From Tubiluchus corallicola (lineage: Eukaryota; Animalia; Priapulida): DNA of 64,000 bases. Below are positions 6,573 to 64,000 of the stretch, piece by piece. The translations under genes were made by a program, and so were the position numbers. The notes beneath the pieces are model-generated. The model was not told where the DNA came from, did no database searches, and was given only the letters and a program-made list of their open reading frames with translations. The stretch is taken from contig JAQGDQ010000391.1 in assembly GCA_030141605.1 (NCBI GenBank), positions 155,865 to 219,864 of the forward strand, written 5' to 3'. Each line of letters starts with the position of its first letter. Position 1 is the stretch's first letter.

Positions 6573-6615
<43 letters not shown>

Positions 6616-11583: not shown

Positions 11584-11639
11584 GAAACCACAGACTTCCC
11601 TTTGCTCAAATCAAGCGGAACTTCATATTCAACGAATCC

Positions 11640-34529: not shown

Positions 34530-35672
34530 GCATATTTAGTTTTCTCAGTGCTTAATTGTCTATAAGCCTAGCAGTAACACATGTTAGTAGCACAATTTTT
34601 TCTTTCAGTCAACAAAATTGTCCTGTTGATGATAACAATGGTTTCAAAGATGTCCATTTTTGTAACGTTGCTAACCGACATTAAAATCAAATCTTTCTTC
34701 TCTATTGTTCTATGAAATGTTTTCAATCATTCCTGTATTCTAGGTCTAGATTAAATTGATGTATTGTAACATTAGTGGGACTCAATACCAATAGATAAGG
34801 AATATATATATATATATATATATATACGGCAATTCCACGGTCAGTAACGTTGCGATTTAGGATGTTTATGTACGTGGTCCAGTTAGGTTTCTCAGTAACC
34901 CCAGAAATTACACCAGAAACAACGTCAAAGATCAATCACGTAGAAATCATGTTAGCATAATAGAATTATATAAGTATACGTATGACGCATGCAGCTCAAA
35001 GCCAAAGACACTTTTATCTCAGACTTCAACATGTCACTTTTTGGTTTTTGGTGTTTCAAACGATGCACAAACTAAGATTTTTTCAAGTTTTGGGCCACTG
35101 TAGACCTGTTAATGTTGTAAAATCAAAAACTGCCTGCATATGTGTGTGTTTTTGTGTGCGTGCGGGTGCATGAAGGTGTGCGTGTGCGTGTGTGTATGTA
35201 TGTATGTATGTGTGTGGTTTAACAAAAAATGATAATGATTTTCTTGTAAAAACACTAAACCTGAAATTTCTACCAAATCATTTCATATTGTAACTATCAA
35301 TCATTGTTTTGCCTTTCCGCTTCACTGTGACTGTGAGAAATGAGAAATGGGTGCCATGGCCTATTGTGATGTTGTCTATTGTCCTTTCTTCACGATACGC
35401 AATGGCAGAATTTTCTACAGTGGCTTTGTCTCTCGCAGTGAAACGCACAGATAACGCGTATCATTGACAATAATTATTCAGAATTTACTACCTAAGTAAA
35501 AATGTCTATTAATATGTTCTTGTTAAGAAACTGTTTTGGCCATTTTAAACAAGACAAATCGACAGTAACGATGAAGGATGTTAAAAAACTACATTTATTC
35601 AAGAAAATATCAGTATAAATAAGCTAATGGCCGCTATTAAATTAATAAACTTTTTATGACGTGTGTGTGTAC

Positions 35673-35798
35673 TTGTTGCTGAGGATGGTGCTGAAGTTGT
35701 AGACATCGTTAATTCTGTAGTTAGTTCATCATATGACGTTTGTCCATAGATACTTCTAGACTTTATCTTCCTTTTCCTGCGTGCCAATGTGTGCCGAT
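35673..35798 (-). CDS. Putative exon with polybasic RRKR motif and S/T tail
   Basis: ttttcattacag|ATCGG...GCAACAA|gtacac, 126 nt, phase 1/1. Encodes RHTLARRKRKIKSRSIYGQTSYDELTTELTMSTTSAPSSAT; its 3' end resembles the repeat-exon 3' end (ACGATG...ACAA|GTAC). Confidence 0.6.
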
Positions 35799-35929
35799 CT
35801 GTAATGAAAATCTTGGTTTGTTACACATCTACATAATCATGTTAAAATTGCAACAAGAACAAGAACTGCTGCTGCAACAACAACAACAGCAACAACAGCA
35901 GCAACACACAGCAATAAGAGCAACTACAA

Positions 35930-39500: not shown

Positions 39501-42500
39501 CTCAGTTGATGATATTTGGCCAGCTTGCTTGGTTGATGATGTTTGACCAACTAACTTAGTTGATGATATGTGGCCAGCTTACTCAGTTGATGATATTTGA
39601 CCAGCTTTCTCAGTTGATGATATTTGGCCAGCTTCCTTGGTTGATGATATGTGGGCAGCTTACTCGGCTGATGATATTTGACCAGCTAACTTAGTTGATT
39701 ATATGTGGCCAGCTTACTTGGTTGATGATATTTGGCCAGCTTACTCGGCTGATGATATTTGACCAGCTTACTCATTTGATGATATTTAACCAGCTTACTC
39801 AATTGATAATATTTGGCCAGCTTCCTTGGTTGATGATATTTGACCAGCTTACTTAGTTAATGATATTTGACCAGCTTACTTAATTGATGATATTTGACCA
39901 GCTTACTTAGTTGATGATATTTGACCAGCTTATTTAGTTGACGATATTTGACCAGCTTACTTAGTTGACGATATTTGACCAGCTTACTTAGTTGACGATA
40001 TTTGACCAGCTTACTTAGTTGATGATATTTGACCAGCTTACTTAGTTGATGATATTTGACCAGCTTACTTAGTTGACGATATTTGACCAACTAAATACTT
40101 AACAAGACAAATACTGTCAAAGTCAAATAAAAACGACCATTTGAGCTTCAAATGACTGTGCTATTGAAAAGTAGGAAAAGAACAAAACACTTTGCCCAAA
40201 GAGGTTGGTAAATACAGTTAAATTCGCTGCTGCAGTAACGTTAAGCAGTGTTACACCATGTGCTAATCTTTTGCTGTGTTAGACATCGACCGGGTATGTC
40301 GATCTTAAAATTATACAAGAAATTGCTTATTTTAGATTTCTAAGACTGCCGCTGATGGCTCTGTGCCTCGTATAGATGATAAAACTAAATAACGCAGCAA
40401 GTGTGCTGCATTCATTCATTTTAAGTTCAAGATTTCATTGCTATTTTTTCATATTTCTGTGAACATAAACGTTTATATTTTCTCTTGCGTCTCATTCTAA
40501 TCGCTACTGCCTTAGCTAGGCGAAATAACAGCAGTATCTTATTTAAAGTATTTTAAACATTGACGTTCTTCTCCATGGTGAGCAAATCGATAGATGGCTG
40601 CTATCGTTTGCGACTTTAACTGTTTTACGGCCCTTTGCCTTTTTCTCTCATGAGAGAAATGTGCAAACGTCACAAATAAGCCATACATATTTGCCATAGA
40701 GGTGCCGTTAACATACTGCTAATTTCTGTGCGTCCACAACCATTTAATATTAGCATCAGGGTCTGAATTCCGATTTATACTGTACACAGTAGTGTAAAAA
40801 CCATTAACATAGAAACACACTAGCCATTAAACAAAATAACCGAAAGTTAAAGTTAAAAATTCAAATTCCAAGTTTACGGCTGCTCTCACTCATGAGATCA
40901 CGAACGTGTGTACTACATTGCATTTGAGAACCTATGAGTTGAAAGGTGGTTTTATTCAACGTTTTTCATAAATGCAGTTACTAGTGACCACCTTCCTTGT
41001 GAAGGAAACCGCCAAGAATTGGTAGAAGAAATGCAAAATTAATTTTAAGTTTATCATTGCACTCACTCATGAGACCTCGAACATGTGTACTACATTGCAT
41101 TTGAAAACCTAAGAGTCGAAAGCTACAGCACCTGGTTTTTATTCAAATGCAGGTACTAGTGTCCACCTACCTAGTGAATGTAACAGCCAAAAGTAGTGAA
41201 AAAAATGCAAAATTACTGTAGTAATAATATTTTCAGGTGAACTATTATTGAAAAAAATATGTTCCTTTTCAATATATAGATTAGAATTATAACATATGAC
41301 TGGGTGCAACATTCTATTAACATTAGCAGCAGGCTCTGTATTCTAGTTTAGAATATGCATGAAAAAAAGTAAAAACCGTTTACAAACCCTGTAGCCTATA
41401 TACTAAAGCAGGGTTTACAGATATTGGAAAGATTTGTGTTTTTACTACTATGGGCAGTCACGGCAGTGTAAGATATTAAACACATTGGTACGAGCAGCAA
41501 CAGTTTTATACAGTGCATTCTGAAGCACGTAAGTATAACTACGATACTTACTGCAGTTGGCTTCTACACCTTCATCACGTCCATTTCCGCATTCGAAATT
41601 GCCGTTGCATAGGAAGTCCTTTGAAATGCAATTTTCGTAAGGGTCAAGCAACCAAGAGAGAGACATCTTACAGTCAAATTCATCTGAACCACATGTGTAT
41701 GGCGAAGCTAAAATTGCGCAAGAAGAAAAATAAGTAATTAACTTAGGTTTACACAAAAAAGCCAATATTGATAGACAGGGCTGGACTATGACCTTTTGGA
41801 GCTTCCGACGATAATGAAATTATGGGTCTTAATGTCTAGAATAGTTTTTACTGGTAATATATTATAAAAACAATTGCAGATCTTGAAGTAAATTTATTGC
41901 AAATTCTTTGATTTAGAATGACTTTTACTAGTCAACACAGTAATGCCAAAGCTCAGTAATGCCAAGCATTGTATTAAATCCTTAGTGAGCAGCTGCAGTT
42001 TTTTTGAATTTTGGTATTTCAGAAAAATGTGCTGCTGCTAGAAATTGTGAATGGATTTGCAGTCTAAAATCAATTTTATAAAGGCATGACAATTAAAGTT
42101 GTGCATAAACTCAAAAAGGAAAAACGTATAAAAATTTACATTTTTCAAGCATTGAAAAAATCTGGTAGTTATCCCATGAAATACATAAAACAGTTAATTT
42201 GGCTACTAAATAATAAAAGTTTTATTGCTTGTTCTAGTACTTGTTGTGGACGATGCACTTGAAGCTGTTGCTGTCATCGTTTGTGTAGTTGAGCCTGAAG
42301 ATGATTCTGAGACTGTTCTCGTTGCAGTTGACAAACTTGTAGGTATACCTAAAGTTGTAAAGAAAGAAGCTGATAAATAATACTAGATTAAAGAAAACTA
42401 CTGACTATTAAGTTAATCAAACTTTACAAGATTACTGAAACGACACATATTTCGTTTTGCATTAACATAAAATTCTGCCCAAAAAACAAAATAGATGGGC

Positions 42501-45500
42501 CATACTAAAGACCAACTGTACCCTCAAGTATACAGATCAGTTTCCTTATTTTCGACCTCATTCCCTTTTGGAAGGTACACAAAAAGCACAAATATCTTGT
42601 AAGCCTTTTTAGCTAAAGTATTTCACCATTTGATATTATTTTTTATTTCTACATCTAAGAAAAATGTGCTGCTCCCAGGATGCTTTGGCACTCTAGAATC
42701 AATTTTATAAAAGTTGACAATTAAAGCAGTGTAAATCCTCAAAAAAGGATAAATATCAAGATTTGCGTTTTTCCAAGTGTTAGAAAAAAATCTTGAAGTA
42801 ATTCCAAAAAAATTATCAAAAACTGTTAATTTTGCTACTAAATAATAAACGTTTTATTGCTTGATTTAGTACTTGTTGTGGACGACACTCTTGAAGTTGT
42901 AGCTGTCATCGTTTGTGTAGTTGATCCTGGAGATGTCCTTGAGACTGTTCCTGTTGTCGTTGACATATTTGTTGATGAACCTACGATTGTTGAAACAATT
43001 TAAGCAGCAAAATAATAATATTAATAAAAAGAAAGCCACTGACTCTCTTCAGTTAGTAAGCATTTACAAGATTAGTAGAATGGCCATATTTTACTATGTT
43101 TTCACAATAAGTTTTGGCCAAAAAAATCTGAAACAGGATAACAAGTAGTGATTTTGTATAGTCGTATAAATCGCAGTGTTATTGTGCAATGTTCAATGAT
43201 GTTCAATGATCAATGTAATAATAAAAAACCAAAATTTTAAATTCAAATTCAAATTTTAAGTTTACCATTGCACTCACTCATGAGACCTCGAACATGTGTA
43301 CTACATTGCATTTGAAAACCTAAGAGTCGAAAGCTACAGCACCTGCTTTTTTATTCAAATGCAGGTACTAGTGTCCACCTGCCTAGTGAATGTAACAGCC
43401 AAAAGTAGTGAAAAAAATGCAAAATTACTGTAGTAATAATATTTTCAGGTGAACTATTATTGAAAAAAATATGTTCCTTTTCAATATATAGATTAGAATT
43501 ATAACATATGACTGGGTGCAACATTCTATTAACATTAGCAGCAGGCTCTGTATTCTAGTTTAGAATATGCATGAAAAAAAGTAAAAACCGTTTACAAACG
43601 CTTCTGCCTATATACTAAAACAGGGTTTGCAGATATTGGAAAGATTTGTGTTTTTACTACTATGGGCAGTCACGGCAGTGTAAGATATTAAGCACATTAG
43701 TACGAGCAGCAACAGCTTTATACAGTGCATTCTGAAGCACGTAAGTATAACTGCAATACTTACTGCAGTTGGCTTCTACACCTTCATCACGTCCATTTCC
43801 GCATTCGAAATTGCCGTTGCATAGGAAGTCCTTTGAAATGCAATTTTCGTAAGGGTCAAGCAACCAAGAGAGAGCCATCTTACAGTCAAATTCATCTGAA
43901 CCACATGTGTATGGCGAAGCTAAAATTGCACAAGAAGAAAAATAAGTAATTAATTTAGGTTTACACAAAAAAGCCAATAGTGATAGACAGGGCTGGAATA
44001 TGACCTTTTGGAGCTTCCGACGATAATGAAATTATGGGTCTTCCTGTCTTGAATAATTTTTACTGGTAATATATTATAAAAACAATTGCAGATCTTGAAG
44101 TAAATTTATTGCAAATTCTTTGATTTAGAATGACTTTTACTAGTCAACAAAGTAATGCCAAAGCTCAGTAATGCCAAGCATTGTATTAAATCCTTGGTGA
44201 GCAGCTGCAGTTTCTTTTGAATTTTGGTATTTCAGAAAAATGTGCTGCTGCTAGAAATTGTGAATGGATTTGCAGTCTAAAATCAATTTTATAAAGGCAT
44301 GACAATTAAAGTTGTGCATAAACTCAAAAAGGAAAAACGTATAAAAATTTACATTTTTCAAGCATTGAAAAAATCTGGTAGCTATCCCATGAAATACATA
44401 AAACGGTTAATTTGGCTACTAAATAATAAAAGTTTTATTGCTTGTTCTAGTACTTGTTGTGGACGATGCACTTGAAGCTGTTGCTGTCATCGTTTGTGTA
44501 GTTGAGCCTGAAGATGATTCTGAGACTATTCGTGTTGCAGTTGACAAACTTGTAGGTATACCTAAAGTTGTAAAGAAAGAAGCTGATAAATAATACTAGT
44601 TTAAAGAAAACTACTGACTATTAAGTTAATCAACCTTTACAAGATTACTGAAACAACACATATTTCGTTTTGCATTAATATAAAATTTTGCCCAAAAAAC
44701 AAAATAGATGAGCCATACAAAAGACCAACTGTACCCTGAAGTATACAGATAAGTTTCCTTATTTTCGACCTCATTCCCTTTTGGAAGGTACACAAAAAGC
44801 AGAAATATCTTTTAAGCTTTTTTAGCTAAAGTATTTCACCATTTGATATTATTTTTTATTTCTACATCTAAGAAAAATGTGTTGCTGCTAGAATGTTTTT
44901 GCACTTTAGAATCAATTTTATAAAAGTTGTCAATTAAAACAGTGTAAATCCTTAAAAAGGGATAAATATCAAGATTTACATTTTCTAAAGCACTGAAAAA
45001 ATCTAGTAGCTATTCCATGAAATATATAAAACTGTTAATTTGGCTACTAAATAATAAAAGTTTTATTGCTTGTTCTAGTACTTGTTGTGGACGATGCACT
45101 TGAAGCTGTTGCTGTCATCGTTTCTGTAGTTGATCCTGAAGATGATTCTGAGACTGTTCTTGTTGCAGTTGACAAACTTGTAGGTGTACCTAAAGTTGTA
45201 AAGAAAGAAGCTGATAAATAATACTAGATTAAAGAAAACTACTGACTATTAAGTTAATCAACCTTTACAAGATTACTGAAACAACACATATTTCGTTTTG
45301 CATTAACATAAAATTCTGCCCAAAAAACAAAATAGATGAGCCATACAAAAGACCAACTGTACCCTCAAGTATACAGATCAGTTTCCTTATTTTCGACCTC
45401 ATTCCCTTTTGGAAGGTACACAAAAAGCAGAAATATCTTTTAAGCTTTTTTAGCTAAAGTATTTCACCATTTGATATTATTTTTTATTTCTACATCTAAG

Positions 45501-48500
45501 AAAAATGTGCTGCTGTTAGAATGTTTTTGCACTCTAGAATCAATTTTATAAAAGTTGTCAATTAAAACAGTGTAAATCCTTAAAAAGGGATAAATATCAA
45601 GATTTACATTTTCTAAAGCATTGAAAAAATCTAGTAGCTATTCCATGAAATATATAAAACTGTTAATTTGGCTACTAAATAATAAAAGTTTTATTGCTTG
45701 TTCTAGTACTTGTTGTGGACGATGCACTTGAAGCTGTTGCTGTCATCGTTTGTGTAGTTGATCCTGAAGATGATTCTGAGACTGTTCTTGTTGCAGTTGA
45801 CAAACTTGTAGGTATACCTAAGTTGTAAAGAAAGAAGCTGATAAATAATACTAGTTTAAAGAAAACTACTGACTATTAAGTCAATCAACCTTTACAAGAT
45901 TACTAAAACAACACATATTTCGTTTTGCATTAACATAAAATTCTGCCGAAAAAACAAAATAGATGAGATATACAAAAGACCAACTGTACCCTCAAGTATA
46001 CAGATCAGTTTCCTTATTTTCGACCTCATTCCCTTTTGGAAGGTACACAAAAAGCAGAAATATCTTTTAAGCTTTTTTAGCTAAAGTATTTCACCATTTG
46101 ATATTATTTTTTATTTCTACATCTAAGAAAAATGTGCTGCTGCTAGAATGTTTTTGCACTCTAGAATCAATTTTATAAAACTTGTCAATTAAAACAGTGT
46201 AAATCCTTAAAAGGGGATAAATATCAAGATTTACATTTTCTAAAGCATTGAAAAAATCTAGTAGCTATTCCATGAAATATATAAAACTGTTAATTTGGCT
46301 ACTAAATAATAAAAGTTTTATTGCTTGTTCTAGTACTTGTTGTGGACGATGCACTTGAAGCTGTTGATGTCATCGTTTGTGTAGTTGATCCTGAAGATGA
46401 TTCTGAGACTGTTCTTGTTGCAGTTGACAAACTTGTAGGTATACCTAAAGTTGTAAAGAAAGAAGCTGATAAATAATACTAGTTTAAAGAAAACTACTGA
46501 CTATTAAGTCAATCAACCTTTACAAGATTACTGAAACAACACATATTTCGTTTTGCATTAACATAAAATTCTGCCCAAAAAACAAAATAGATGAGCCATA
46601 CAAAAGACCAACTGTACCCTCAAGTATACAGATCAGTTTCCTCATTTTCGACCTCATTCCCTTTTGGAAGGTACACAAAAAGCAGAAATATCTTTTAAGC
46701 TTTTTTAGCTAAAGTATTTCACCATTTGATAATATTTTTTATTTCTACATCTAAGAAAAATGTGCTGCTGCTAGAATGTTTTTGCACTCTAGAATCAATT
46801 TTATAAAAGTTGTCAATTAAAACAGTGTAAATCCTTCAAAGGGGATAAATATCAAGATTTACATTTTCTAAAGCATTGAAAAAATCTAGTAGCTACCCCA
46901 TGAAATATATGAAACTGTTAATTTGGCTACTAAATAATAAAAGTTTTATTGCTTGTTCTAGTACTTGTTGTGGACGATGCACTTGAAGCTGTTGCTGTCA
47001 TCGTTTGTGTAGTTGATCCTGAAGATGATTCTGAGACTGTTCTTGTTGCAGTTGACAAAGTTGTAGGACTACCTAAAATTGTAAAGAAAGAAGTTGATAA
47101 ATAATACTAGATTAAAGAAAACTACTGACTATTAAGTTAATCAACCTTTACAAGATTACTGAAATGACACATATTTCGTTTTGCATTAACATAAAATTCT
47201 GCCCAAAAAACAAAATAGATGGGCCATACAAAAGACCAACTGTACCCTCAAGTATACAGATCAGTTTTCTTACTTTCGACCTTATCAACTTTTGGAAGGT
47301 ACACAAAAAGCACAAAATCTTTTAAGCTTTTTTAGCTAAAGTATTTCAACTTTTGATACTATTTTTTATTTCTACATCAAAGAAAAACGTGCTGCTGCCA
47401 GGATGTTTTGGCAGTCTAAAATCAATTTTGTAATGGCATGACAATTAAAGTAGTGCATAAACTCAAAAAGGAAAAACGTATAAAAATTTACATTTTTTAA
47501 GCATTGAAAAAATCTGGTAGCTATTCCATGAAATACATAAAACGGTTAATTTGGCTACTAAATATTAAAAGTTTTATTGCTTGTTCTAGTACTTGTTGTG
47601 GACGATGCACTTGAAGCTGTTGATGTCATCGTTTGTGTAGTTGAGCCTGAAGATGATTCTGAGACTGTTCTCGTTGCAGTTGACAAAGTTGTAGGACTAC
47701 CTAAAATTGTAAAGAAAGAAGTTGATAAATAATACTAGATTAAAGAAAACTTCTGACTATTAAGTTAATCAACCTTTACAAGATTACTGAAATGACACAT
47801 ATTTCGTTTTGCATTAACATAAAATTTTGCCCAAAAAAACAAAATATATGGGCCATACAAAAGACCAACTGTACCCTCAAGTATACAGATCAGTTTCCTT
47901 AGTTTCGACCTCATTCCCTTTTGGAAGGTACACAAAAAGCACAAATATCTTGTAAGCTTTTTTAGCTAAAGTATTTCACCATTTGATATTATTTTTTATT
48001 TCTACATCTAAGAAAAATGTGCTGCTCCCAGAATGTTTTGGCACTCTAGAATCAATTTTATAAAAGTTGACAATTAAAGCAGTGTAAATCCTCAAAAAGG
48101 GATAAATACCAAGATTTGCATTTTTTCCAAGTGTTAGAAAAAAAATCTTGAAGTAATTCCAAAAAAATTATCAAAAACTGTTAATTTTGCTACTAAATAA
48201 TAAAAGTTTTATTGCTTGATTTAGTACTTGTTGTTGACGACACTCTTGAAGTTGTAGCTGTCATCGTTTGTGTAGTTGATCCTGGAGATGTCCTTGAGAC
48301 TGTTCCTGTTGTCGTTGACATATTTGTTGATGAACCTACGATTGTTGAAACAATTTAAGCAGCAAAATAATAATATTAATAAAAAGAAAGCCACTGACTC
48401 TCTTAAGTTATTAAGCATTTACAATATTAGTAGAATGGCCATATTTTACTATGTTTTCACAATAAGTTTTGTCCAAAAAAATCTGAAACAGGATAACAAG

Positions 48501-51500
48501 TAGTGATTTTGTATAGTCGTATAAATCGCAGTGTTATTGTGCAATGTTCAATGATGTTCAATGATCAATGTAATAATAAAAAACCAAAATTTTAAATTAA
48601 AATTCAAATTTTAAGTTTACCATTGCACTCACTCATGAGACCTCGAACATGTGTACTACATTGCATTTGAAAACCTAAGAGTCGAAAGGTACAGCACCTG
48701 GTTTTTATTCAAATGCAGGTACTAGTGTCCACCTACTTAGTGAATGTAACAGCCAAAAGTAGTGAAAAAAATGCAAAATTACTGTAGTAATAATATTTTC
48801 AGGTGAACTATTATTGAAAAAAATATGTTCCTTTTCAATATATAGATTAGAATTATAACATATGACTGGGTGCAACATTCTATTAACATTAACAGCAGGA
48901 TCTGTATTCTAGTTTAGAATATGCATGGAAAAAAGTAAAAACCATTTACAAACGCTTCTGCCTATATACTAAAACAGGGTTTGCAGATATTGGAAAGATT
49001 TGTGTTTTTACTACTATGGGCAGTCCTGGCAGTGTAAGATATTAAACACATTAGTACGAGCAGCAACAGTTTTATACAGTGCATTCTGAAGCACGTAAGT
49101 ATAACTACAATACTTACTGCAGTTGGCTTCTACACCTTCATCACGTCCATTTCCGCATTCGAAATTGCCATTGCATAGAAAGTCCTTTGAAATGCAATTT
49201 TCGTAAGGGTCAAGCAACCAAGAGAGAGACATCTTGCAGTCAAATTCATCTGAACCACATGTGTATGGCGAAGCTAAAATTGCGCAAGAAGAAAAAATGT
49301 AATTAATTTAGGTTTACACAAAAAAGCCAATAGTGATAGACAGGGCTGGACTATGACCTTTTGGAGCTTCCGACGATAATGAAATTATGGGTCTTCCTGT
49401 CTTGAATAATTTTTACTGGTAATATATTATAAAAACAATTGCAGATCTTGAAGTGAATTTATTGCAAATTCTTTGATTTAGAATGACTTTTACTAGTCAA
49501 CAAAGTAATGCCAAAGCTCAGTAATGCCAAGCATTGTATTAAATCCTTTGTGAGCAGTTGCAGTTTCTTTTGAATTTTGGTATTTCAGAAAAATGTGCTG
49601 CTGCTAGAAATTGTGAATGGATTTGCAGTCTAAAATCAATTTTATAAAGGCATGACAATTAAAGTTGTGCGTAAACTCAAAAAGGAAAACCGTATAAAAA
49701 TTTACATTTTTCAAGCATTGAAAAAATCTGGTAGCTATCCCATGAAATACATAAAACGGTTAATTTGGCTACTAAATAATAAAAGTTTTATTGCTTGTTC
49801 TAGTACTTGTTGTGGACGATGCACTTGAAGCTGTTGCTGTCATCGTTTGTGTAGTTGAGCCTGAAGATGATTCTGAGACTATTCTTGTTGCAGTTGACAA
49901 ACTTGTAGGTATACCTAAAGTTGTAAAGAAAGAAGCTGATAAATAATACTAGTTTAAAGAAAACTACTGACTATTAAGTCAATCAACCTTTACAAGATTA
50001 CTGAAACAACACATATTTCGACTACGACACATATTTCGTTTTGCATTAAAGTAAAATTCTGCCCAAAAAACAAAATAGATGAGCCATACAAAAGACCAAC
50101 TGTACCCTCCAATATACAGATCAGTTTTCTTATTTTCGACCTTATCCCCTTTTGGAAGATACACAAAAAGCAGAAATATCTTTTAAGCTTTTTTAGCTAA
50201 AGTATTTCACCATTTGATATTTTTTTTTATTTCTACATCTAAGAAAAATGTGCTGCTCCCAGGATATTTTGGCACTCTAGAATCAATTTTATAAAAGTTG
50301 ACAATTAAAACAGTGTAAATTCTTAAAAAAGGATAGATATCAAGATTTACATTTTCTAAAGCATTGAAAAAATCTAGTAGCTATCCAATGAAATATATGA
50401 AACTGTTAATTTGGCTACTAAATATTAAAGCTTTTATTGTTTGTTCTAGTACTTGTTGTGGACGATGCACTTGAAGCTGTTGATGTCATCGTTTGTGTAG
50501 TTGAACCTGAAGATGATTCTGAGACCGTTCTTGTTGCAGTTGACAAAGTTGTAGGACTACCTAAAATTGTAAAGAAAGAAGTTGATAAATAATACTAGAT
50601 TAAAGAAACCTACTTACTATTAAGTTAATCAACCTTTACAAGATTACTGAAATGACACATATTTCGTTTTGCATTAACATAAAATTCTGCCCAAAAAAAA
50701 CAAAATAGATGGGCCATACAAAAGACCAACTGTACCCTCAAGTATACAGATCAGTTTTCTTACTTTCGACCTTATCACCTTTTGGAAGGTACACAAAAAA
50801 GCACAAAATCTTTTAAGCTTTTTTAGCTAAAGTATTTCAACTTTTGATATTATTTTTTATTTCTACATCAAAGAAAAACGTGCTGCTGCCAGGATGTTTT
50901 GGCAGTCTAAAATAAATTTTATAAAGGCATGACAATTAAAGTAGTGCATAAACTCAAAAAGGAAAAACGTATAAAAATTTACATTTTTCAAGCATTGAAA
51001 AAATCTGGTAGCTATTCCATGAAATACAAAAAACGGTTAATTTGGCTACTAAATAATAAAAGTTTTATTGCTTGTTCTAGTACTTGTTGTGGACGATGCA
51101 CTTGAAGCTGTTGATGTCATCGTTTGTGTAGTTGAGCCTGAAGATTCTGAGACTGTTCTTGTTGCAGTTGACAAAGTTGTAGGACTACCTAAAATTGTAA
51201 AGAAAGAAGTTGATAAATAATACTAGATTAAAGAAAACTACTGACTATTAAGTTAATCAACCTTTACAAGATTACTGAAATGACACATATTTCGTTTTGC
51301 ATTAACATAAAATTTTGCCCGAAAAAACAAAATAGATGGGCCATACAAAAGACCAACTGTACCCTCAAGTATACAGATCAGTTTCCTTATTTTCGACCTC
51401 ATTCCCTTTAGGAAGGTACACAAAAAGCACAAATATCTTGTAAGCTTTTTTAGCTAAAGTATTTCACCATTTGATATTATTTTTTATTTCTACATCTAAG

Positions 51501-54500: not shown

Positions 54501-57500
54501 CCAACTGTACCCTCAAGTATACAGATCAGTTTCCTTAGTTTCGACCTCATTCCCTTTTGGAAGGTACACAAAAAGCACAAATATCTTGTAAGCTTTTTTA
54601 GCTAAAGTATTTCACCATTTGATATTATTTTTTATTTCTACATCTAAGAAAAATGTGCTGCTCCCAGAATGTTTTGGCACTCTAGAATCAATTTTATAAA
54701 AGTTGACAATTAAAGCAGTGTAAATCCTCAAAAAGGGATAAATACCAAGATTTGCATTTTTTCCAAGTGTTAGAAAAAAAATCTTGAAGTAATTCCAAAA
54801 AAATTATCAAAAACTGTTAATTTTGCTACTAAATAATAAAAGTTTTATTGCTTGATTTAGTACTTGTTGTGGACGACACTCTTGAAGTTGTAGCTGTCAT
54901 CGTTTGTGTAGTTGATCCTGGAGATGTCCTTGAGACTGTTCTTGTTGCAGTTGACAAATTTGTAGGACTACCTAAAATTGTAAAGAAAGAAGTTGATAAA
55001 TAATACTAGATTAAAGAAAACTACTGACTATTAAGTTAATCAACCTTTACAAGATTACTGAAATGACACATATTTCGCTTTGCATTAACATAAAATTCTG
55101 CCCAAAAAAACAAAATAGATGGGCCATACAAAAGACCAACTGTACCCCCCAATATACAGATCAGTTTTCTTATTTTCGACCTTATCCCCTTTTGGAAGAT
55201 ACACAAAAAGCAGAAATATCTTTTAAGCTTTTTTAGCTAAAGTATTTCACCATTTGATATTATTTTTATTTCTACATCTAAGAAAAATGTGCTGCTCCCA
55301 GGATGTTTTGGCACTCTAGAATCAATTTCATAAAAGTTGACAATTCAAACAGTGTAAATCCTTAAAAAAGGATAGATATCAAGATTTACATTTTCTAAAG
55401 CAGTGAAAAAATCTAGTAGCTATCCAATGAAATATATGAAACTGTTAATTTGGCTACTAAATATTAAAGGTTTTATTGTTTGTTCTAGTACTTGTTGTGG
55501 ACGATGCACTTGAAGCTGTTGATGTCATCGTTTGTGTAGTTGAGCCTGAAGATGATTCTGAGACTGTTCTTGTTGCAGTTGACAAAGTTGTAGGACTACC
55601 TAAAATTGTAAAGAAAGAAGTTGATAAATAATACTAGATTAAAGAAACCTACTGACTATTAAGTTAATCGACCTTTACAAGATTACTGAAATGACACATA
55701 TTTCGTTTTGCATTAACATAAAATTCTGCCCAAAAAAACAAAATAGATGGGCCATACAAAAGACCAACTGTACCCTCCAATATACAGATCAGTTTTCTTA
55801 TTTTCGACCTTATCCCCTTTTGGAAGATACACAAAAAGCAGAAATATCTTTTAAGCTTTTTTAGCTAAAGTATTTCAACTTTTGATATTATTTTTTATTT
55901 CTACATCAAAGAAAAACGTGCTGCTGCCAGGATGTTTTGGCAGTCTAAAATCAATTTTATAAAGGCATGACAATTAAAGTAGTGCATAAACTCAAAAAGG
56001 AAAAACGTATAAAAATTTACATTTTTCAAGCATTGAAAAAATCTGGTAGCTATTCCATGAAATACATAAAACGGTTAATTTGGCTACTAAATAATAAAAG
56101 TTTTATTGCTTGTTCTAGTACTTGTTGTGGACGATGCACTTGAAGCTGTTGATGTCATCGTTTGTGTAGTTGAGCCTGAAGATGATTCTGAGACTGTTCT
56201 TGTTGCAGTTGACAAACTTGTAGGTATACCTAAAGTTGTAAAGAAAGAAGCTGATAAATAATACTAGATTAAAGAAAACTACTGACTATTAAGTTAATCA
56301 ACCTTTACAAGATTACTGAAACGACACATATTTCGTTTTGCATTAACATAAAATTCTGCCCAAAAAACAAAATAGATGGGCCATACAAAAGACCAACTGT
56401 ACCCTCAAGTATACAGATCAGTTTCCTTATTTTCGACCTCATTCCCTTTTGGAAGGTACACAAAAAGCACAAAATCTTTTAAGCTTTTTTAGCTAAAGTA
56501 TTTCACCATTTGATATTATTTTTTATTTCTACATCTAAGAAAAATGTGCTGCTGCCAGGATGTTTTGGCACTCTAGAATCAATTTTGTAAAAGTTGACAA
56601 TTAAAACAGTGTAAATCCTTAAAAAGGGATAGATATCAAGATTTACATTTTCTATAGCATTGAAAAAATCTAGTAGCTATCCAATGAAATATATAAAACT
56701 GTTAATTTGGCTACTAAATATTAAAGGTTTTATTGTTTGTTCTAGTACTTGTTGTGGACGATGCACTTGAAGCTGTTGATGTCATCGTTTGTGTAGTTGA
56801 GCCTGAAGATGATTCTGAGACTGTTCTTGTTGCAGTTGACAAAGTTGTAGGACTACCTAAAATTGTAAAGAAAGAAGTTGATAAATAATACTAGATTAAA
56901 GAAACCTACTGACTATTAAGTTAATCAACCTTTACAAGATTACTGAAATGACACATATTTCGTTTTGCATTAACATAAAATTCTGCCCAAAAAACAAAAT
57001 AGATGGGCCATACAAAAGACCAACTGTACCCTCAAGTATACAGATCAGTTTTCTTACTTTCGACCTTATCAACTTTTGGAAGGTACACAAAAAGCACAAA
57101 ATCTTTTAAGCTTTTTTAGCTAAAGTATTTCAACTTTTGATATTATTTTTTATTTCTACATCAAAGAAAAACGTGCTGCTGCCAGGATGTTTTGGCAGTC
57201 TAAAATCAATTTTATAAAGGCATGACAATTAAAGTAGTGCATAAACTCAAAAAGGAAAAACGTATAAAAATTTACATTTTTCAAGCATTGAAAAAATCTG
57301 GTAGCTATTCCATGAAATACATAAAACGGTTAATTTGGCTACTAAATAATAAAAGTTTTATTGCTTGTTCTAGTACTTGTTGTGGACGATGCACTTGAAG
57401 CTGTTGATGTCATCGTTTGTGTAGTTGAGCCTGAAGATGATTCTGAGACTGTTCTTGTTGCAGTTGACAAACTTGTAGGTATACCTAAAGTTGTAAAGAA

Positions 57501-60500
57501 AGAAGCTGATAAATAATACTAGATTAAAGAAAACTACTGACTATTAAGTTAATCAACCTTTACAAGATTACTGAAATGACACATATTTCGTTTTGCATTA
57601 ACATAAAATTCTGCCCAAAAAACAAAATAGATGGGCCATACAAAAGACCAACTGTACCCTCAAGTATACAGATCAGTTTCCTTATTTTCGACCTCATTCC
57701 CTTTTGGAAGGTACACAAAAAGCACAAATATCTTGTAAGCTTTTTTAGCTAAAGTATTTCACCATTTGATATTTTTTTTTATTTCTACATCTAAGAAAAA
57801 TGTGCTGCTCCCAGGATATTTTGGCACTCTAGAATCAATTTTATAAAAGTTGACAATTAAAGCAGTGTAAATCCTCAAAAAGGGATAAATATCAAGATTT
57901 ACATTTTTTCCAAGCATTGAAAAAAAATCTTGAAGTAATTCCAATAAAATTATCAAAAACTGTTAATTTGGCTACTAAATAATAAAAGTTTTATTGCTTG
58001 TTCTAGTACTTGTTGTGGACGATGCACTTGAAGCTGTTGCTGTCATCGTTTGTGTAGTTGAGCCTGAAGATGATTCTGAGACTGTTCTTGTTGCAGTTGA
58101 CAAAGTTGTAGGACTACCTAAAATTGTAAAGAAAGAAGTTGATAAATAATACTAGATTAAAGAAACCTACTGACTATTAAGTTAATCAACCTTTACAAGA
58201 TTACTGAAATGACACATATTTCGTTTTGCATTAACATAAAATTCTGCCCAAAAAAACAAAATAGATGGGCCATACAAAAGACCAACTGTACCCCCCAATA
58301 TACAGATCAGTTTTCTTATTTTCGACCTTATCCCCTTTTGGAAGATACACAAAAAGCAGAAATATCTTTTAAGCTTTTTTAGCTAAAGTATTTCACCATT
58401 TGATATTATTTTTATTTCTACATCTAAGAAAAATGTGCTGCTCCCAGGATGTTTTGGCACTCTAGAATCAATTTCATAAAAGTTGACAATTCAAACAGTG
58501 TAAATCCTTAAAAACGGATAGATATCAAGATTTACATTTTCTAAAGCATTGAAAAAATCTAGTAGCTATCCAATGAAATATATAAAACTGTTAATTTGGC
58601 TACTAAATATTAAAGCTTTTATTGTTTGTTCTAGTACTTGTTGTGGACGATGCACTTGAAGCTGTTGATGTCATCGTTTGTGTAGTTGAACCTGAAGATG
58701 ATTCTGAGACTGTTCTTGTTGCAGTTGACAAAGTTGTAGGACTACCTAAAATTGTAAAGAAAGAAGTTGATAAATAATACTAGATTAAAGAAACCTACTG
58801 ACTATTAAGTTAATCAACCTTTACAAGATTACTGAAATGACACATATTTCGTTTTGCATTAACATAAAATTCTGCCCAAAAAACAAAATAGATGAGCCAT
58901 ACAAAAGACCAACTGTACCCTCCAATATACAGATCAGTTTTCTTATTTTCGACCTTATCCCCTTTTGGAAGATACACAAAAAGCAGAAATATCTTTTAAG
59001 CTTTTTTAGCTAAAGTATTTCAACTTTTGATATTATTTTTTATTTCTACATCAAAGAAAAACGTGCTGCTGCCAGGATGTTTTGGCAGTCTAAAATCAAT
59101 TTTATAAAGGCATGACAATTAAAGTAGTGCATAAACTCAAAAAGGAAAAACGTATAAAAATTTACATTTTTCAAGCATTGAAAAAATCTAGTAGCTATCC
59201 AATGAAATATATAAAACTTTTAATTTGGCTACTAAATATTAAAGGTTTTATTGTTTGTTCTAGTACTTGTTGTGGACGATGCACTTGAAGCTGTTGATGT
59301 CATCGTTTGTGTAGTTGAGCCTGAAGATGATTCTGAGACTGTTCTTGTTGCAGTTGACAAAGTTGTAGGACTACCTAAAATTGTAAAGAAAGAAGTTGAT
59401 AAATAATACTAGATTAAAGAAACCTACTGACTATTAAGTTAATCAACCTTTACAAGATTACTGAAATGACACATATTTCGTTTTGCATTAACATAAAATT
59501 CTGCCCAAAAAACAAAATAGATGGGCCATACAAAAGACCAACTGTACCCTCAAGTATACAGATCAGTTTTCTTATTTTCGACCTTATCCCCTTTTGGAAG
59601 GTACACAAAAAGCACAAAATCTTTTAAGCTTTTTTAGCTAAAGAATTTCAACTTTTGATATTATTTTTTATTTCTACATCAAAGAAAAACGTGCTGCTGC
59701 CAGGATGTTTTGGCAGTCTAAAATCAATTTTATAAAGGCATGACAATTAAAGTAGTGCATAAACTCAAAAAGGAAAAACGTATAAAAATTTACATTTTTC
59801 AAGCATTGAAAAAATCTGGTAGCTATTCCATGAAATACATAAAACGGTTAATTTGGCTACTAAATAATAAAAGTTTTATTGCTTGTTCTAGTACTTGTTG
59901 TGGACGATGCACTTGAAGCTATTGATGTCATCGTTTGTGTAGTTGAGCCTGAAGATGATTCTGAGACTGTTCTTGTTGCAGTTGACAAAGTTGTAGGACT
60001 ACCTAAAATTGTAAAGCAAGAAGTTGATAAATAATACTAGGTTAAAGAAAACTACTGACTATTAAGTTAATCAACCTTTACAAGATTACTGAAATGACAC
60101 ATATTTCGTTTTGCATTAACATAAAATTCTGCCCAAAAAAAAATAGATGGGCCATACAAAAGACCAACTGTACCCTCAAGTATACAGATCAGTTTTCTTA
60201 CTTTCGACCTTATCAACTTTTGGAAGGTACACAAAAAGCACAAAATCTTTTAAGCTTTTTTAGCTAAAGTATTTCAACTTTTGATACTATTTTTTATTTC
60301 TACATCAAAGAAAAACGTGCTGCTGCCAGGATGTTTTGGCAGTCTAAAATCAATTTTGTAATGGCATGACAATTAAAGTAGTGCATAAACTCAAAAAGGA
60401 AAAACGTATAAAAATTTACATTTTTTAAGCATTGAAAAAATCTGGTAGCTATTCCATGAAATACATAAAACGGTTAATTTGGCTACTAAATAATAAAAGT

Positions 60501-63500
60501 TTTATTGCTTGTTCTAGTACTTGTTGTGGACGATGCACTTGAAGCTGTTGATGTCATCGTTTGTGTAGTTGAGCCTGAAGATGATTCTGAGACTGTTCTC
60601 GTTGCAGTTGACAAAGTTGTAGGACTACCTAAAATTGTAAAGAAAGAAGTTGATAAATAATACTAGATTAAAGAAAACTTCTGACTATTAAGTTAATCAA
60701 CCTTTACAAGATTACTGAAATGACACATATTTCGTTTTGCATTAACATAAAATTTTGCCCAAAAAAACAAAATATATGGGCCATACAAAAGACCAACTGT
60801 ACCCTCAAGTATACAGATCAGTTTCCTTAGTTTCGACCTCATTCCCTTTTGGAAGGTACACAAAAAGCACAAATATCTTGTAAGCTTTTTTAGCTAAAGT
60901 ATTTCACCATTTGATATTATTTTTTATTTCTACATCTAAGAAAAATGTGCTGCTCCCAGAATGTTTTGGCACTCTAGAATCAATTTTATAAAAGTTGACA
61001 ATTAAAGCAGTGTAAATCCTCAAAAAGGGATAAATACCAAGATTTGCATTTTTTCCAAGTGTTAGAAAAAAAATCTTGAAGTAATTCCAAAAAAATTATC
61101 AAAAACTGTTAATTTTGCTACTAAATAATAAAAGTTTTATTGCTTGTTCTAGTACTTGTTGTGGACGATGCTCTTGAAGCTGTTGCTGTCATCGTTTGTG
61201 TAGTTGATCCTGAAGATGTTCTTGAGACTGTTCTTGTTGCAGTTGACAAAGTTGTAGGACTACCTAAAATTGTAAAGAAAGAAGTTGATAAATAATACTA
61301 GATTAAAGAAAACTACTGACTATTAAGTTAATCAACCTTTACAAGATTACTGAAATGACACATATTTCGCTTTGCATTAACATAAAATTCTGCCCAAAAA
61401 AACAAAATAGATGGGCCATACAAAAGACCAACTGTACCCCCCAATATACAGATCAGTTTTCTTATTTTCGACCTTATCCCCTTTTGGAAGATACACAAAA
61501 AGCAGAAATATCTTTTAAGCTTTTTTAGCTAAAGTATTTCACCATTTGATATTATTTTTATTTCTACATCTAAGAAAAATGTGCTGCTGCCAGGATGTTT
61601 TGGCACTCTAGAATCAATTTCATAAAAGTTGACAATTCAAACAGTGTAAATCCTTAAAAAAGGATAGATATCAAGATTTACATTTTCTAAAGCAGTGAAA
61701 AAATCTAGTAGCTATCCAATGAAATATATGAAACTGTTAATTTGGCTACTAAATATTAAAGGTTTTATTGTTTGTTCTAGTACTTGTTGTGGACGATGCA
61801 CTTGAAGCTGTTGATGTCATCGTTTGTGTAGTTGAGCCTGAAGATGATTCTGAGACTGTTCTTGTTGCAGTTGACAAAGTTGTAGGACTACCTAAAATTG
61901 TAAAGAAAGAAGTTGATAAATAATACTAGATTAAAGAAACCTACTGACTATTAAGTTAATCAACCTTTACAAGATTACTGAAATGACACATATTTCGTTT
62001 TGCATTAACATAAAATTCTGCCCAAAAAACAAAATAGATGGGCCATACAAAAGACCAACTGTACCCTCAAGTATACAGATCAGTTTTCTTGCTTTCGACC
62101 TTATCAACTTTTGGAAGGTACACAAAAAGCACAAAATCTTTTAAGCTTTTTTAGCTAAAGTAGTTCAACTTTTGATATTATTTTTTATTTCTACATCAAA
62201 GAAAAACGTGCTGCTGCCAGGATGTTTTGGCAGTCTAAAATCAATTTTATAAAGGCATGACAATTAAAGTAGTGCATAAACTCAAAAAGGAAAAACGTAT
62301 AAAAATTTACATTTTTCAAGCATTGAAAAAATCTGGTAGCTATTCCATGAAATACATAAAACGGTTAATTTGGCTACTAAATAATAAAAGTTTTATTGCT
62401 TGTTCTAGTACTTGTTGTGGACGATGCACTTGAAGCTGTTGATGTCATCGTTTGTGTAGTTGAGCCTGAAGATGATTCTGAGACTGTTCTTGTTGCAGTT
62501 GACAAACTTGTAGGTATACCTAAAGTTGTAAAGAAAGAAGTTGATAAATAATACTAGATTAAAGAAAACTACTGACTATTAAGTTAATCAACCTTTACAA
62601 GATTACTGAAACGACACATATTTCGTTTTGCATTAACATAAAATTCTGCCCAAAAAACAAAATAGATGGGCCATACAAAAGACCAACTGTACCCTCAAGT
62701 ATACAGATCAGTTTCCTTATTTTCGACCTTATTCCCTTTTGGAAGGTACACAAAAAGCACAAATATCTTTTAAGCTTTTTTAGCTAAAGTATTTCACCAT
62801 TTGATATTATTTTTTATTTCTACATCTAAGAAAAATGTGCTGCTGCCAGGATGTTTTGGCACTCTAGAATCAATTTTGTAAAAGTTGACAATTAAAACAG
62901 TGTAAATCCTTAAAAAGGGATAGATATCAAGATTTACATTTTCTATAGCATTGAAAAAATCTAGTAGCTATCCAATGAAATATATAAAACTGTTAATTTG
63001 GCTACTAAATATTAAAGGTTTTATTGTTTGTTCTAGTACTTGTTGTGGACGATGCACTTGAAGCTGTTGATGTCATCGTTTGTGTAGTTGAGCCTGAAGA
63101 TGATTCTGAGACTGTTCTTGTTGCAGTTGACAAAGTTGTAGGACTACCTAAAATTGTAAAGAAAGAAGTTGATAAATAATACTAGATTAAAGAAACCTAC
63201 TGACTATTAAGTTAATCAACCTTTACAAGATTACTGAAATGACACATATTTCGTTTTGCATTAACATAAAATTCTGCCCAAAAAACAAAATAGATGGGCC
63301 ATACAAAAGACCAACTGTACCCTCAAGTATACAGATCAGTTTTCTTACTTTCGACCTTATCAACTTTTGGAAGGTACACAAAAAGCACAAAATCTTTTAA
63401 GCTTTTTTAGCTAAAGTATTTCAACTTTTGATATTATTTTTTATTTCTACATCAAAGAAAAACGTGCTGCTGCCAGGATGTTTTGGCAGTCTAAAATCAA

Positions 63501-63775
63501 TTTTATAAAGGCATGACAATTAAAGTAGTGCATAAACTCAAAAAGGAAAAACGTATAAAAATTTACATTTTTCAAGCATTGAAAAAATCTGGTAGCTATT
63601 CCATGAAATACATAAAACGGTTAATTTGGCTACTAAATAATAAAAGTTTTATTGCTTGTTCTAGTACTTGTTGTGGACGATGCACTTGAAGCTGTTGATG
63701 TCATCGTTTGTGTAGTTGAGCCTGAAGATGATTCTGAGACTGTTCTTGTTGCAGTTGACAAACTTGTAGGTATAC
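35673..63775 (-). CDS. Partial multi-exon mucin-like Ser/Thr-rich protein with three LDLa domains (5' end beyond window, 3' end not located)
   Basis: Chain of phase-compatible AG...GT exons in transcription order: 23 S/T exons (63775 to 49807), LDLa 49273-49118, 7 S/T exons, LDLa 43919-43764, 2 S/T exons, LDLa 41707-41552, then unique exons 39261-39172, 37583-37547, 37345-37245 and 35798-35673. No in-frame stops seen in the exons read. Confidence 0.75.
35850..36583. repeat. (GTA)n/(GCA)n microsatellite
   Basis: Directly visible. Confidence 0.95.
37245..37345 (-). CDS. Putative acidic exon of the mucin-like gene
   Basis: ttcttctttcatcag|CACGGCG; phase 2 in, encodes TARTLAVQVAKIEADEDKILEDPASEDQVSELN, phase 1 out (gtgaac, or gttaga 9 nt further). 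Confidence 0.5.
37547..37583 (-). CDS. Putative 37-nt exon of the mucin-like gene
   Basis: ttttttacaaag|CACGAGCA...GTGGG|gtaatt; phase 1 in, phase 2 out (RAPDAVTRPNVG), matching the phase needed by the next exon. Confidence 0.45.
37660..38222. repeat. (GTTACT)n microsatellite
   Basis: Directly visible. Confidence 0.95.
39172..39261 (-). CDS. Diverged Ser/Thr/Glu-rich exon of the mucin-like gene
   Basis: tttcaataatattag|GTTCACCG resembles the type-B acceptor. Encodes SPTTTSEVTSESTEATTTTETATTSCKIT; donor A|gtaata gives 90 nt, phase 1/1 (alternative in-frame donor gttgta 15 nt earlier). Confidence 0.65.
39367..40092. repeat. 27-bp minisatellite, ~27 copies, intronic
   Basis: Unit agttgatgatatttgaccagcttactt. 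Confidence 0.95.
41552..41707 (-). CDS. LDL-receptor class A (LDLa) domain exon, copy 1
   Basis: 156-nt phase-1/phase-1 exon, ttttag|CTTCG...TGCA|gtaagt. Encodes SPYTCGSDEFDCKMSLSWLLDPYENCISKDFLCNGNFECGNGRDEGVEANC with 6 Cys, FxC, CI and the CxGxxxCxxGxDE pattern. Confidence 0.88.
42241..42348 (-). CDS. Representative type-A Ser/Thr-rich repeat exon (108 nt)
   Basis: ctttag|GTATACCT...ACAACAA|gtacta; encodes (S)IPTSLSTATRTVSESSSGSTTQTMTATASSASSTT. A/variant copies have low ends at 44454, 45082, 45710, 46337, 46965, 47593, 49807, 50453, 51084, 51717, 52346, 52975, 53603, 54229, 55492, 56122, 56749, 57377, 58010, 58638, 59267, 59895, 60521, 61156, 61784, 62412, 63040 and 63668. Confidence 0.75.
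42873..42980 (-). CDS. Type-B Ser/Thr-rich repeat exon (108 nt); second copy 48228-48335, A/B chimera 54864-54971
   Basis: aatcgtag|GTTCATCA...ACAACAA|gtacta; encodes (S)SSTNMSTTTGTVSRTSPGSTTQTMTATTSRVSSTT (NMS sequon). Both full B copies are the first exon downstream of an LDLa exon. Confidence 0.75.
43764..43919 (-). CDS. LDLa domain exon, copy 2
   Basis: Near-identical to copy 1 (offset 2212 bp) with intact splice sites; one S>A change (KMALSW). Confidence 0.88.
49118..49273 (-). CDS. LDLa domain exon, copy 3
   Basis: Near-identical to copy 1 with intact ttttag and gtaagt sites; the differences seen are synonymous (e.g. TGT/TGC, TTC/TTT, AAC/AAT). Confidence 0.88.
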
Positions 63776-64000
63776 CTAAAGTTGTAAAGAAAGAAGCTGA
63801 TAAATAATACTAGATTAAAGAAAACTACAGACTATTAAGTTAATCAACCTTTACAAGATTACTGAAACGACACATATTTCGTTTTGCATTAACATAAAAT
63901 TCTGCCCAAAAAACAAAATAGATGGGCCATACAAAAGACCAACTGTACCCTCAAGTATACAGATCAGTTTCCTTATTTTCGACCTCATTCCCTTTTGGAA

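What the first reader, a model, noticed from the sequence alone, without database searches (positions are those of the whole stretch)
41552..64000. A 22-kb 'satellite' that is an array of 32 tandem symmetric exons building a mucin-like stalk studded with LDLa domains
Seen: every ~630-bp unit has, on the minus strand, a pyrimidine-rich acceptor (ttttag/ctttag), a 108-nt stop-free Ser/Thr-dominated segment and a GT. All are phase 1/1, the same phase as the three interspersed LDLa exons. Spliced together they give ~1150 aa of S/T repeat, and the array continues beyond the window. Known: in many well-studied mucins the PTS repeats sit inside one giant exon, and LDLa modules are classic phase-1 shuffled exons. 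Inference: here the amplifying unit is exon+intron, so stalk length and LDLa spacing (>=23, 7 and 2 units) could vary in frame by unequal crossover or exon skipping. Repeat masking and ORF finders would miss this gene.
Basis: partly seen in the sequence, partly recalled or inferred. Interest (0 to 1): 0.82.

Follow-up and report, generated by a model that had tools for sequence, protein, structure and literature searches.

The report
Worm mucin array with weak donors
What looks like a 630-base satellite in a likely priapulid worm is at least 32 tandem copies of a short serine/threonine-coding segment with three LDL-receptor-type modules among them, likely the exons of one mucin-like gene built one repeat per exon as known from blood flukes and chicken; every copy ends in an unusually weak splice donor followed by a stop codon, so its splicing is untested and would probably be leaky.

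Summary
The anatomy is real: 32 units (31 of 108 nt, one of 105), all with an AG acceptor, an open phase-1 Ser/Thr frame and a GT, spaced 23/7/2 around three phase-1 LDLa exons that pass Pfam's cut-off. The amplifying unit is exon plus intron, with a 10-unit higher-order repeat. The neighbouring MFSD6 gene is closest to Priapulus. Two older copies of the exon lie downstream, with GPI-like ends possible. Each is followed by AATAAA and an in-frame stop inside a ~40-nt stretch that is conserved across the old copies. Splicing could not be tested. Best reading: a mucin-like gene of weak-donor cassette exons (0.55). A skipped pseudo-exon satellite stays open (0.25). One repeat per exon is published (SmPoMuc, chicken Muc13), and this scan has already reported that design in seven other genomes' windows. 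New member of a known kind, with one testable twist.

The parts
49807..63775 (-). Block 1: 23 Ser/Thr units at 626-646 bp spacing; each has acceptor, 108-nt phase-1 segment (first at 63775-63668; 105 nt at 51188), GT. Open towards the window end.
51189..63775 (-). Two copies of a 10-unit higher-order repeat (6291 and 6296 bp, 99.3% identical, differences clustered in tracts)
49118..49273 (-). LDLa exon 1, 156 nt, phase 1/1, strong donor
44454..48335 (-). Block 2: 7 units, the first (48335-48228) a variant type about 20-22% diverged in the exon
43764..43919 (-). LDLa exon 2
42241..42980 (-). Block 3: 2 units (variant 42980-42873, standard 42348-42241)
41552..41707 (-). LDLa exon 3
63628..63667 (-). 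Example of the ~40-nt element after the GT, present in every unit: weak donor, AATAAA at +14, in-frame TAG 11 codons on; 71-78% identical among the array unit and the two older copies
39184..39261 (-). Older diverged Ser/Thr exon candidate, 78 nt to the homologous GT; an AG//GU donor in phase lies 39 nt further (117-nt form); its acceptor resembles that of the variant units
35673..35798 (-). Older diverged exon candidate, 126 nt, phase 1/1, with an RRKR furin-type motif (motif recalled) followed by Ser/Thr
35599..35672 (-). Read-through of the 35798 exon: short polar spacer, 16 uncharged mostly hydrophobic residues, TGA overlapping AATAAA; GPI-signal-like by a home-made rule
33922..34070 (-). 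Second candidate last exon, phase-1 acceptor, 48 codons, Ser/Thr/Ala/Gly-rich then hydrophobic tail, 46% GC; lies beside a high-copy element, so uncertain

Best explanation
This is likely the 3' part of one mucin-like gene of a probable priapulid, in which a symmetric Ser/Thr exon and its intron were amplified in tandem together with an LDLa exon, and the spliced product is predicted to be a long O-glycosylated stalk carrying LDLa modules and probably ending in a GPI-type tail. Shown: the units, their shared phase, the LDLa modules, the nested duplications and conversion-like tracts. Inferred: the array grows and shrinks by unequal crossover and is homogenised by gene conversion, always in frame. 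Inferred: because each repeat's donor is weak and followed by a conserved 40-nt element, the repeats behave as cassette exons that are included only part of the time, so the gene yields a spread of stalk lengths and not one 1150-aa stalk. Untested: every junction, the signal peptide (beyond the window), the true last exon, glycosylation.
For: 32 of 32 intact acceptors and open phase-1 frames; 0 of 1000 shuffles reach the S/T level. LDLa exons have the same phase and strong sites, and 3 of their 4 variable sites are synonymous (P 0.026 to 0.084 by two null rates). GC step at the GT: 0.42 to 0.28 in the unit, 0.40 to 0.28 at 35798. Diversity 0.034 in the exon vs 0.068 in the intron over 27 units. 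One 3-nt indel in the exon; 15 of 16 internal indels outside are not multiples of 3. Two older copies at 62-65% DNA identity keep acceptor, phase, S/T frame and a GT at the same place. The first 40 nt after that GT are 71-78% identical among the three types (0 of 300 shuffles in each of 3 pairs), against 54-64% for the last 45 exon nt and 46-49% further in; conserved proximal intron beside a weak site is typical of regulated cassette exons (recalled). Precedent: SmPoMuc 1-kb exon+intron repeats, >93% identical, with variable repeat numbers in cDNA (PMC2576457, passages).
Against: The donor CAA|GTACTA matches the U1 consensus at 5 of 9 positions and has neither -1G nor +5G; the two strong donors seen in this window are of the ordinary classes. 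The GT is also part of a Ser codon, so its conservation need not mean donor function. S/T codon variants show no synonymous excess (8 of 28; 29% expected) and the lack of stops is unremarkable (P 0.14). Many intron indels sit in homopolymer runs that the exon lacks. The variant-type exon is more diverged from standard units (20-22%) than its intron is (10-11%). No close homolog of the LDLa module was found, so there is no annotated ortholog to lean on.
Confidence: 0.55

Rival explanations
1. Skipped pseudo-exon satellite: the units descend from a once-coding Ser/Thr exon but have no working donor; the gene splices its LDLa exons over them and the array expanded neutrally inside introns.
For: 0 of 32 donors in either main class; neutral-looking codon changes; the copies are young (unit pairs up to 100% identical), so intact frames and acceptors prove little.
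Against: Acceptors are strong in 32 of 32; the older copies keep the whole anatomy at 62-65% identity; the 40 nt after the GT are conserved above both flanks; indels avoid the exon.
Confidence: 0.25
2. Splice-or-stop ladder: each unit is mainly a composite terminal exon. When the weak donor is passed over, the frame reads 11 more codons to a stop and the transcript is polyadenylated there, giving secreted forms of many lengths; only transcripts that splice through all units reach the GPI-type end.
For: AATAAA within 25 nt of the GT and an in-frame stop after 11 codons in 32 of 32 units. ATAAAA sits inside the conserved element in all three types. In the 35798 copy, whose read-through runs to a hydrophobic tail, the near hexamer is CATAAA and an AATAAA overlaps the stop. 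Weak skipped donors mark composite terminal exons (PMC2926593, passages).
Against: AATAAA occurs 1.6 times per kb here, so one within 25 nt is about 4% by chance, and the 32 copies are one event. The hexamer lies before the stop and only 14 nt from the GT, against a median of 238-355 nt quoted in PMC2926593. In the 39261 copy the hexamer is intact but the stop is 105 nt away. Leakage at each of 32 or more units would leave few full-length messages.
Confidence: 0.13
3. The conserved element is a 38-39-nt GT..AG micro-intron or a recursive splice step, not the start of the long intron.
For: A TAG falls at +38 (array) or +39 (both older copies) after the GT; at 39261 it is followed directly by GT.
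Against: Very short for most animals (recalled); sequence beyond +40 is at background identity; in the array the following frame ends in a stop with no donor examined that would continue it.
Confidence: 0.04
4. The array length is an assembly or amplification artefact.
For: Several unit pairs ten apart are 100% identical.
Against: The two 6.3-kb copies differ at 45 columns in clustered tracts; there are 19 distinct exon sequences among 32.
Confidence: 0.03

Closest known systems
Schistosoma mansoni SmPoMuc genes (PMC2576457; search listing and passages seen)
   Same: A mucin-like repeat held in one small exon, amplified with its introns as a tandem genomic unit (about 1 kb, up to about 20 copies, >93% identical), homogenised by concerted evolution; exon types differ more than introns.
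   Different: Here 108-nt exons in ~628-bp units, at least 32 copies, a 10-unit higher-order repeat, LDLa exons between blocks, no Rfam match in the window (SmPoMuc has an intronic hammerhead), and splicing is not shown. No homology is claimed.
Chicken Muc13 (PMC1552070; abstract and passages seen)
   Same: PTS domain made of near-identical exons, one repeat each; the authors already propose length control by recombination and by splicing.
   Different: Muc13 has SEA, EGF and transmembrane parts and EST support; none of 101 downstream ORFs here hit Pfam, and proline is only 3%.
Holothuria leucospilota predicted protein KAJ8024783.1, auto-named 'sortilin-related receptor' (P0121)
   Same: Best hit of the LDLa exon (38% identity, E 1.6e-17 summed over 15 stretches): LDLa modules with a long loop after the second Cys, alternating with Thr-rich spacers behind a signal-peptide-like start.
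   Different: One short Thr/Pro spacer per LDLa, many LDLa; its exon structure was not examined; similarity is at family level, not orthology.
Xenopus FIM-C.1 integumentary mucin (PMC7177656; passages seen)
   Same: Mucin with shuffled Cys-rich modules, described as highly polymorphic through alternative splicing.
   Different: TFF modules, not LDLa; its exon layout was not in the passages I saw.
Composite terminal exons / intronic polyadenylation, e.g. sFlt1 (PMC2926593; passages seen)
   Same: Weak donor competing with read-through to a stop and poly(A) signal, switching anchored to secreted product.
   Different: One switch per gene, poly(A) signals 100 to over 4000 nt from the donor; here a candidate switch in every repeat, 14 nt from the GT, untested.

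Membership tests
One-repeat-per-exon mucin-like genes (SmPoMuc, chicken Muc13 design) | Tandem genomic unit = one symmetric Ser/Thr-rich exon plus intron | tested here: met
   32 units, phase 1/1, 66% S+T
One-repeat-per-exon mucin-like genes (SmPoMuc, chicken Muc13 design) | Units homogenised by concerted evolution | tested here: met
   Mean pair identity 0.92, 10-unit higher-order repeat at 99.3% with clustered tracts
One-repeat-per-exon mucin-like genes (SmPoMuc, chicken Muc13 design) | Working splice donor on each repeat exon | tested here: inconclusive
   GT in 32 of 32, but 0 of 32 in either main donor class; GC step and conserved +1..+40 support the boundary
One-repeat-per-exon mucin-like genes (SmPoMuc, chicken Muc13 design) | Transcripts that join the repeat exons | not testable with these tools
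   No usable RNA run; see Tried and rejected
One-repeat-per-exon mucin-like genes (SmPoMuc, chicken Muc13 design) | Signal peptide and O-glycosylation | not testable with these tools
   5' end lies beyond the window; no whole genome held
LDL receptor class A module (PF00057) | Six Cys and profile score above the curated cut-off | tested here: met
   3 of 3 exons above 24.1 bits; Atlas top hits LDLa at 0.95; VLDLR/LDLR/LRP1 chains in PDB, E 2e-4 to 7e-3
LDL receptor class A module (PF00057) | Acidic calcium cage near the C-terminus | tested here: inconclusive
   Final DE kept; against the aligned VLDLR/LDLR repeats several Asp positions are Asn or Glu and Ser is Arg, and the loop after Cys 2 is 9 residues longer. 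Which residues bind calcium is recalled.
LDL receptor family proteins | EGF, YWTD propeller and transmembrane parts after the LDLa cluster | tested here: not met
   0 of 101 minus-strand ORFs of 38 aa or more between 20000 and 41500 hit Pfam at E 0.01; shorter exons would be missed
GPI-anchored proteins | C-terminal omega site, polar spacer, hydrophobic tail | tested here: inconclusive
   35798 read-through passes a home-made rule that 4 of 366 ORF ends in the window pass; its 28% GC is intron-like; second candidate at 34070; no GPI predictor available
Composite terminal exons (intronic polyadenylation) | Weak donor, in-frame stop and poly(A) hexamer downstream | tested here: met
   32 of 32 by sequence
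Composite terminal exons (intronic polyadenylation) | Polyadenylated transcripts ending there | not testable with these tools
   Needs 3'-end sequencing
Ribozyme-bearing satellites (retrozymes) | Self-cleaving ribozyme in each unit | tested here: not met
   0 Rfam matches at gathering score in the whole window

The most novel reading that the evidence does not exclude
Every repeat carries its own splice-or-stop switch: a donor outside both main classes, a poly(A) hexamer and a stop codon in one conserved 40-nt element. One gene would then make a ladder of secreted LDLa-mucins of 30 or more lengths plus a GPI-anchored, furin-releasable full-length form, with length set by where transcripts stop and not by exon skipping or DNA copy number.
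Probability: 0.13. Interest if true: 0.75.

Novelty: new member of a known kind. Interest (0 to 1): 0.4.

Why it matters
As a gene model it shows again that apparent satellites can hide mucin exons, here in a poorly sampled phylum and with LDLa as the interspersed module; that design is already published and the scan has met it often. The part worth a test is the donor. Thirty-two or more tandem exons all using a site with neither -1G nor +5G would be a natural, highly replicated case of non-class 5' splice-site use. If the adjacent stop and poly(A) hexamer are used, it would be a new way to make mucin polydispersity. If the units are skipped, it is an example of an exon-derived satellite growing inside a live gene.

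Tried and rejected
No whole genome is held, so the 5' end and genome-wide donor statistics could not be examined. Run search with the neighbouring MFSD6 coding region: 2 runs listed, no RNA holder listed. X1 (kind unknown) covers introns like DNA and may be the window's own sample, so it is no independent support. X2 (RNA is a guess; 0.00 of the MFSD6 words) laid 1 contig on 40100-43100 and 3 on 31000-35870, all short partial matches away from the candidate exons; this says nothing about expression. No joints over introns in either run on 40100-43100. X1 depths are no copy number; I did not use them to estimate array length. A 39-nt exon pattern in metagenome contigs: 0 matches. LDLa exon against longer proteins in the 5.8-billion set: no candidate; against 1.84 billion representatives: 9 hits at E 0.001 or better, none above 42% identity, three of them (P0123, P0128, P0129) not evidently LDLa. 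Pfam on the 35798 exon: none. tblastn for further MFSD6 exons to get more donors: nothing convincing. Idea that the units are decayed copies of a GPI last exon held by protein constraint: weakened, because identity falls to background after +40, before the hydrophobic tail. Better in-frame donors inside the units: only a +5G site at +12 in 10 of 32 and an AG//GU site at +54 in 3 of 32, so none general. A 2-nt bulge register (+4/+5) would fit the +7G of 29 of 32 units, but PMC4856993 (passages) proved that register only in artificial contexts, and the older copies lack it. Invariance of -7..+6 across 32 units is not significant given how few columns vary. Paper searches for this combination found nothing relevant: 0 papers; 1, on snail thioester proteins; 0. 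One search listed priapulan genome papers; I read none. No supplements were opened.
Full report
Observation. On the minus strand I recovered 30 units by motif and 2 variant units that follow LDLa exons 1 and 2, 32 in all. Each has a pyrimidine tract ending in TAG, a stop-free phase-1 segment and a GT. 31 of 32 are 108 nt and one (51188) is 105 nt through a 3-nt deletion. Together they hold 1151 codons, 34% Thr, 32% Ser, 3% Pro. Three 156-nt phase-1/1 exons encode LDLa modules above the Pfam cut-off, backed by the Atlas and by weak PDB hits to VLDLR, LDLR and LRP1 repeats. Spacing is 23, 7 and 2 units and the array leaves the window. None of 1000 dinucleotide shuffles of a unit gave a symmetric AG..GT segment with 40% S/T, against 69% observed.

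Organism and context. The neighbouring gene at 18229-20010 is MFSD6; its best named hit is Priapulus caudatus at 65%, with all other named hits scoring far lower. The animal is therefore likely a priapulid or close relative (inference). No whole genome is held.

How the array grew. Adjacent units are about 93% identical, units ten apart 98.7%; the two 6.3-kb blocks are 99.3% identical with 45 differences in clusters, such as one tract in unit 3 and one in the exon of unit 5. The LDLa exon was duplicated with about 1-1.6 kb of flank at 96-98% identity. This is what unequal crossover plus gene conversion leaves (inference), and it argues against a plain assembly echo. Because every module is phase 1/1, any gain or loss keeps the frame.

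Evidence that the segments code. LDLa copies differ at 4 sites, 3 synonymous (P 0.026 at the counted site ratio, 0.084 at a 30% null). In 27 regular units diversity is 0.034 in the exon and 0.068 in the intron. The exon has one 3-nt indel; 15 of 16 internal indels outside it are not multiples of 3, though many lie in homopolymer runs. G+C falls from 0.42 to 0.28 at the GT. Against this, S/T codon variants are 8 synonymous of 28, as expected without selection, and the absence of stops has P 0.14. The young array by itself cannot prove function.

The gene goes on below the finding. Two older relatives of the unit lie at 39261 and 35798 (62% and 65% identity, E 4e-5 and 2e-9). Both keep a YAG acceptor, phase 1, an S/T frame, a length divisible by 3 and a GT at the homologous place. 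The second has an RRKR furin-type motif (motif recalled). Read through its GT, it ends in 16 uncharged, mostly hydrophobic residues and a TGA that overlaps AATAAA; a home-made GPI rule passes 4 of 366 ORF ends in the window, this one included. A second GPI-like candidate last exon starts at 34070, with exon-like 46% G+C, but it borders a high-copy element. None of 101 downstream ORFs hit Pfam, so no EGF, propeller or SEA part was found and this is not filed as an LDL-receptor family member.

All 32 donors read CAA|GTACTA: 5 of 9 matches to the consensus, no -1G, no +5G. None fits AG//GU or //GURAG, the classes that hold 45.1% and 53.6% of human donors and are reported in fly, worm, fish and Arabidopsis too (PMC11732430, passages). 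The LDLa and MFSD6 donors in this window are ordinary. No better in-frame donor is general: 10 of 32 units have a +5G site at +12, 3 of 32 an AG//GU site at +54. The homologous GTs of the two older copies are outside both classes as well. If the donor is passed over, all 32 units meet a stop after 11 codons and all have AATAAA within 25 nt.

A conserved element sits there. The first 40 nt after the GT are 76%, 71% and 78% identical in the three pairs among the array unit, 39261 and 35798 (0 of 300 shuffles each), more than the last 45 exon nt (54-64%) and the next 80 intron nt (46-49%, background). So something at the DNA or RNA level is kept beside the weak GT, and it is not the hydrophobic tail. 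I read it as a helper of a weak cassette-exon donor, which is the main reason to rank the spliced reading above the dead-satellite reading. It could instead be a poly(A) signal that competes with the donor, as in composite terminal exons (PMC2926593, passages), or a 38-39-nt GT..AG unit. A 2-nt U1 bulge register fits 29 of 32 units but was proved only in artificial contexts (PMC4856993, passages).

What could not be tested. No spliced junction was seen or excluded; the run look-ups are told under Tried and rejected.

Comparison with what is known. SmPoMuc genes carry a 27-bp exon in about 1-kb exon+intron repeats, up to about 20 per gene, over 93% identical, under concerted evolution, with variable repeat number in cDNA (PMC2576457, passages). 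Chicken Muc13 has one PTS repeat per exon, and length control by splicing was proposed there in 2006 (PMC1552070, abstract and passages). Xenopus FIM-C.1 is called polymorphic through alternative splicing (PMC7177656, passages). An LDLa plus Thr-rich spacer architecture is predicted in a sea cucumber protein (P0121). This scan's own notes list seven similar arrays in other genomes; they are unchecked leads, and I used them only to find the Muc13 paper. Three paper searches for the LDLa/GPI/mucin or terminal-exon combination found nothing relevant.

Verdict. Works like SmPoMuc and chicken Muc13 in design; membership is met on anatomy and open on splicing. Best reading 0.55: weak-donor cassette exons of an LDLa-studded mucin-like gene. 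Rivals: skipped pseudo-exon satellite 0.25, splice-or-stop ladder 0.13, micro-intron 0.04, artefact 0.03. New member of a known kind; interest 0.40, or 0.75 if the ladder is real.

Noticed in passing
window 18229-20010, minus strand: MFSD6 gene with about 590 codons in one exon; best named hit Priapulus caudatus 65%. Its later exons were not found in 1-18000 by tblastn.
   Followed up: partly
window 35448-35870: In run X1 one contig with a single difference covers the 35798 exon and its tail at depth 100, against about 9-12 on nearby pieces. Depth is no copy number, but it hints that this exon has several near-identical copies elsewhere or is collapsed here.
   Followed up: no
window 41478-41721: Run X1 holds a second, diverged LDLa-exon contig (235 nt laid, 30 other letters, a 9-nt gap and a 1-nt gap with a 1-nt insertion nearby), a hint of a paralogous or upstream LDLa exon.
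   Followed up: no
window 34097-34574: High-copy element of about 460-480 bp (very high X1 depth; joints that skip 458 and 476 bases), MITE-like, just upstream of the 34070 candidate exon.
   Followed up: no
window 28017-28915, minus strand: Broken ORFs that read like the 3' end of a non-LTR retrotransposon (resemblance recalled; no Pfam hit; ORFs).
   Followed up: partly
window 39361-40089; 9870-10375; 11885-12297: Minisatellites of 27 bp (27 copies, in the intron after LDLa exon 3), 35 bp and 68 bp.
   Followed up: no
window 3183-3428, 22054-22407: Degenerate interstitial TTAGGG-type repeats, on opposite strands.
   Followed up: no
window 22540-22790 and 23560-23810: Two similar stretches about 1 kb apart, seen by eye; a local direct duplication.
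   Followed up: no
window 54864-54971 and 61156-61263: Units 15 and 5 carry exon parts like the variant post-LDLa unit inside standard flanks, a likely conversion between blocks 6-13 kb apart.
   Followed up: partly
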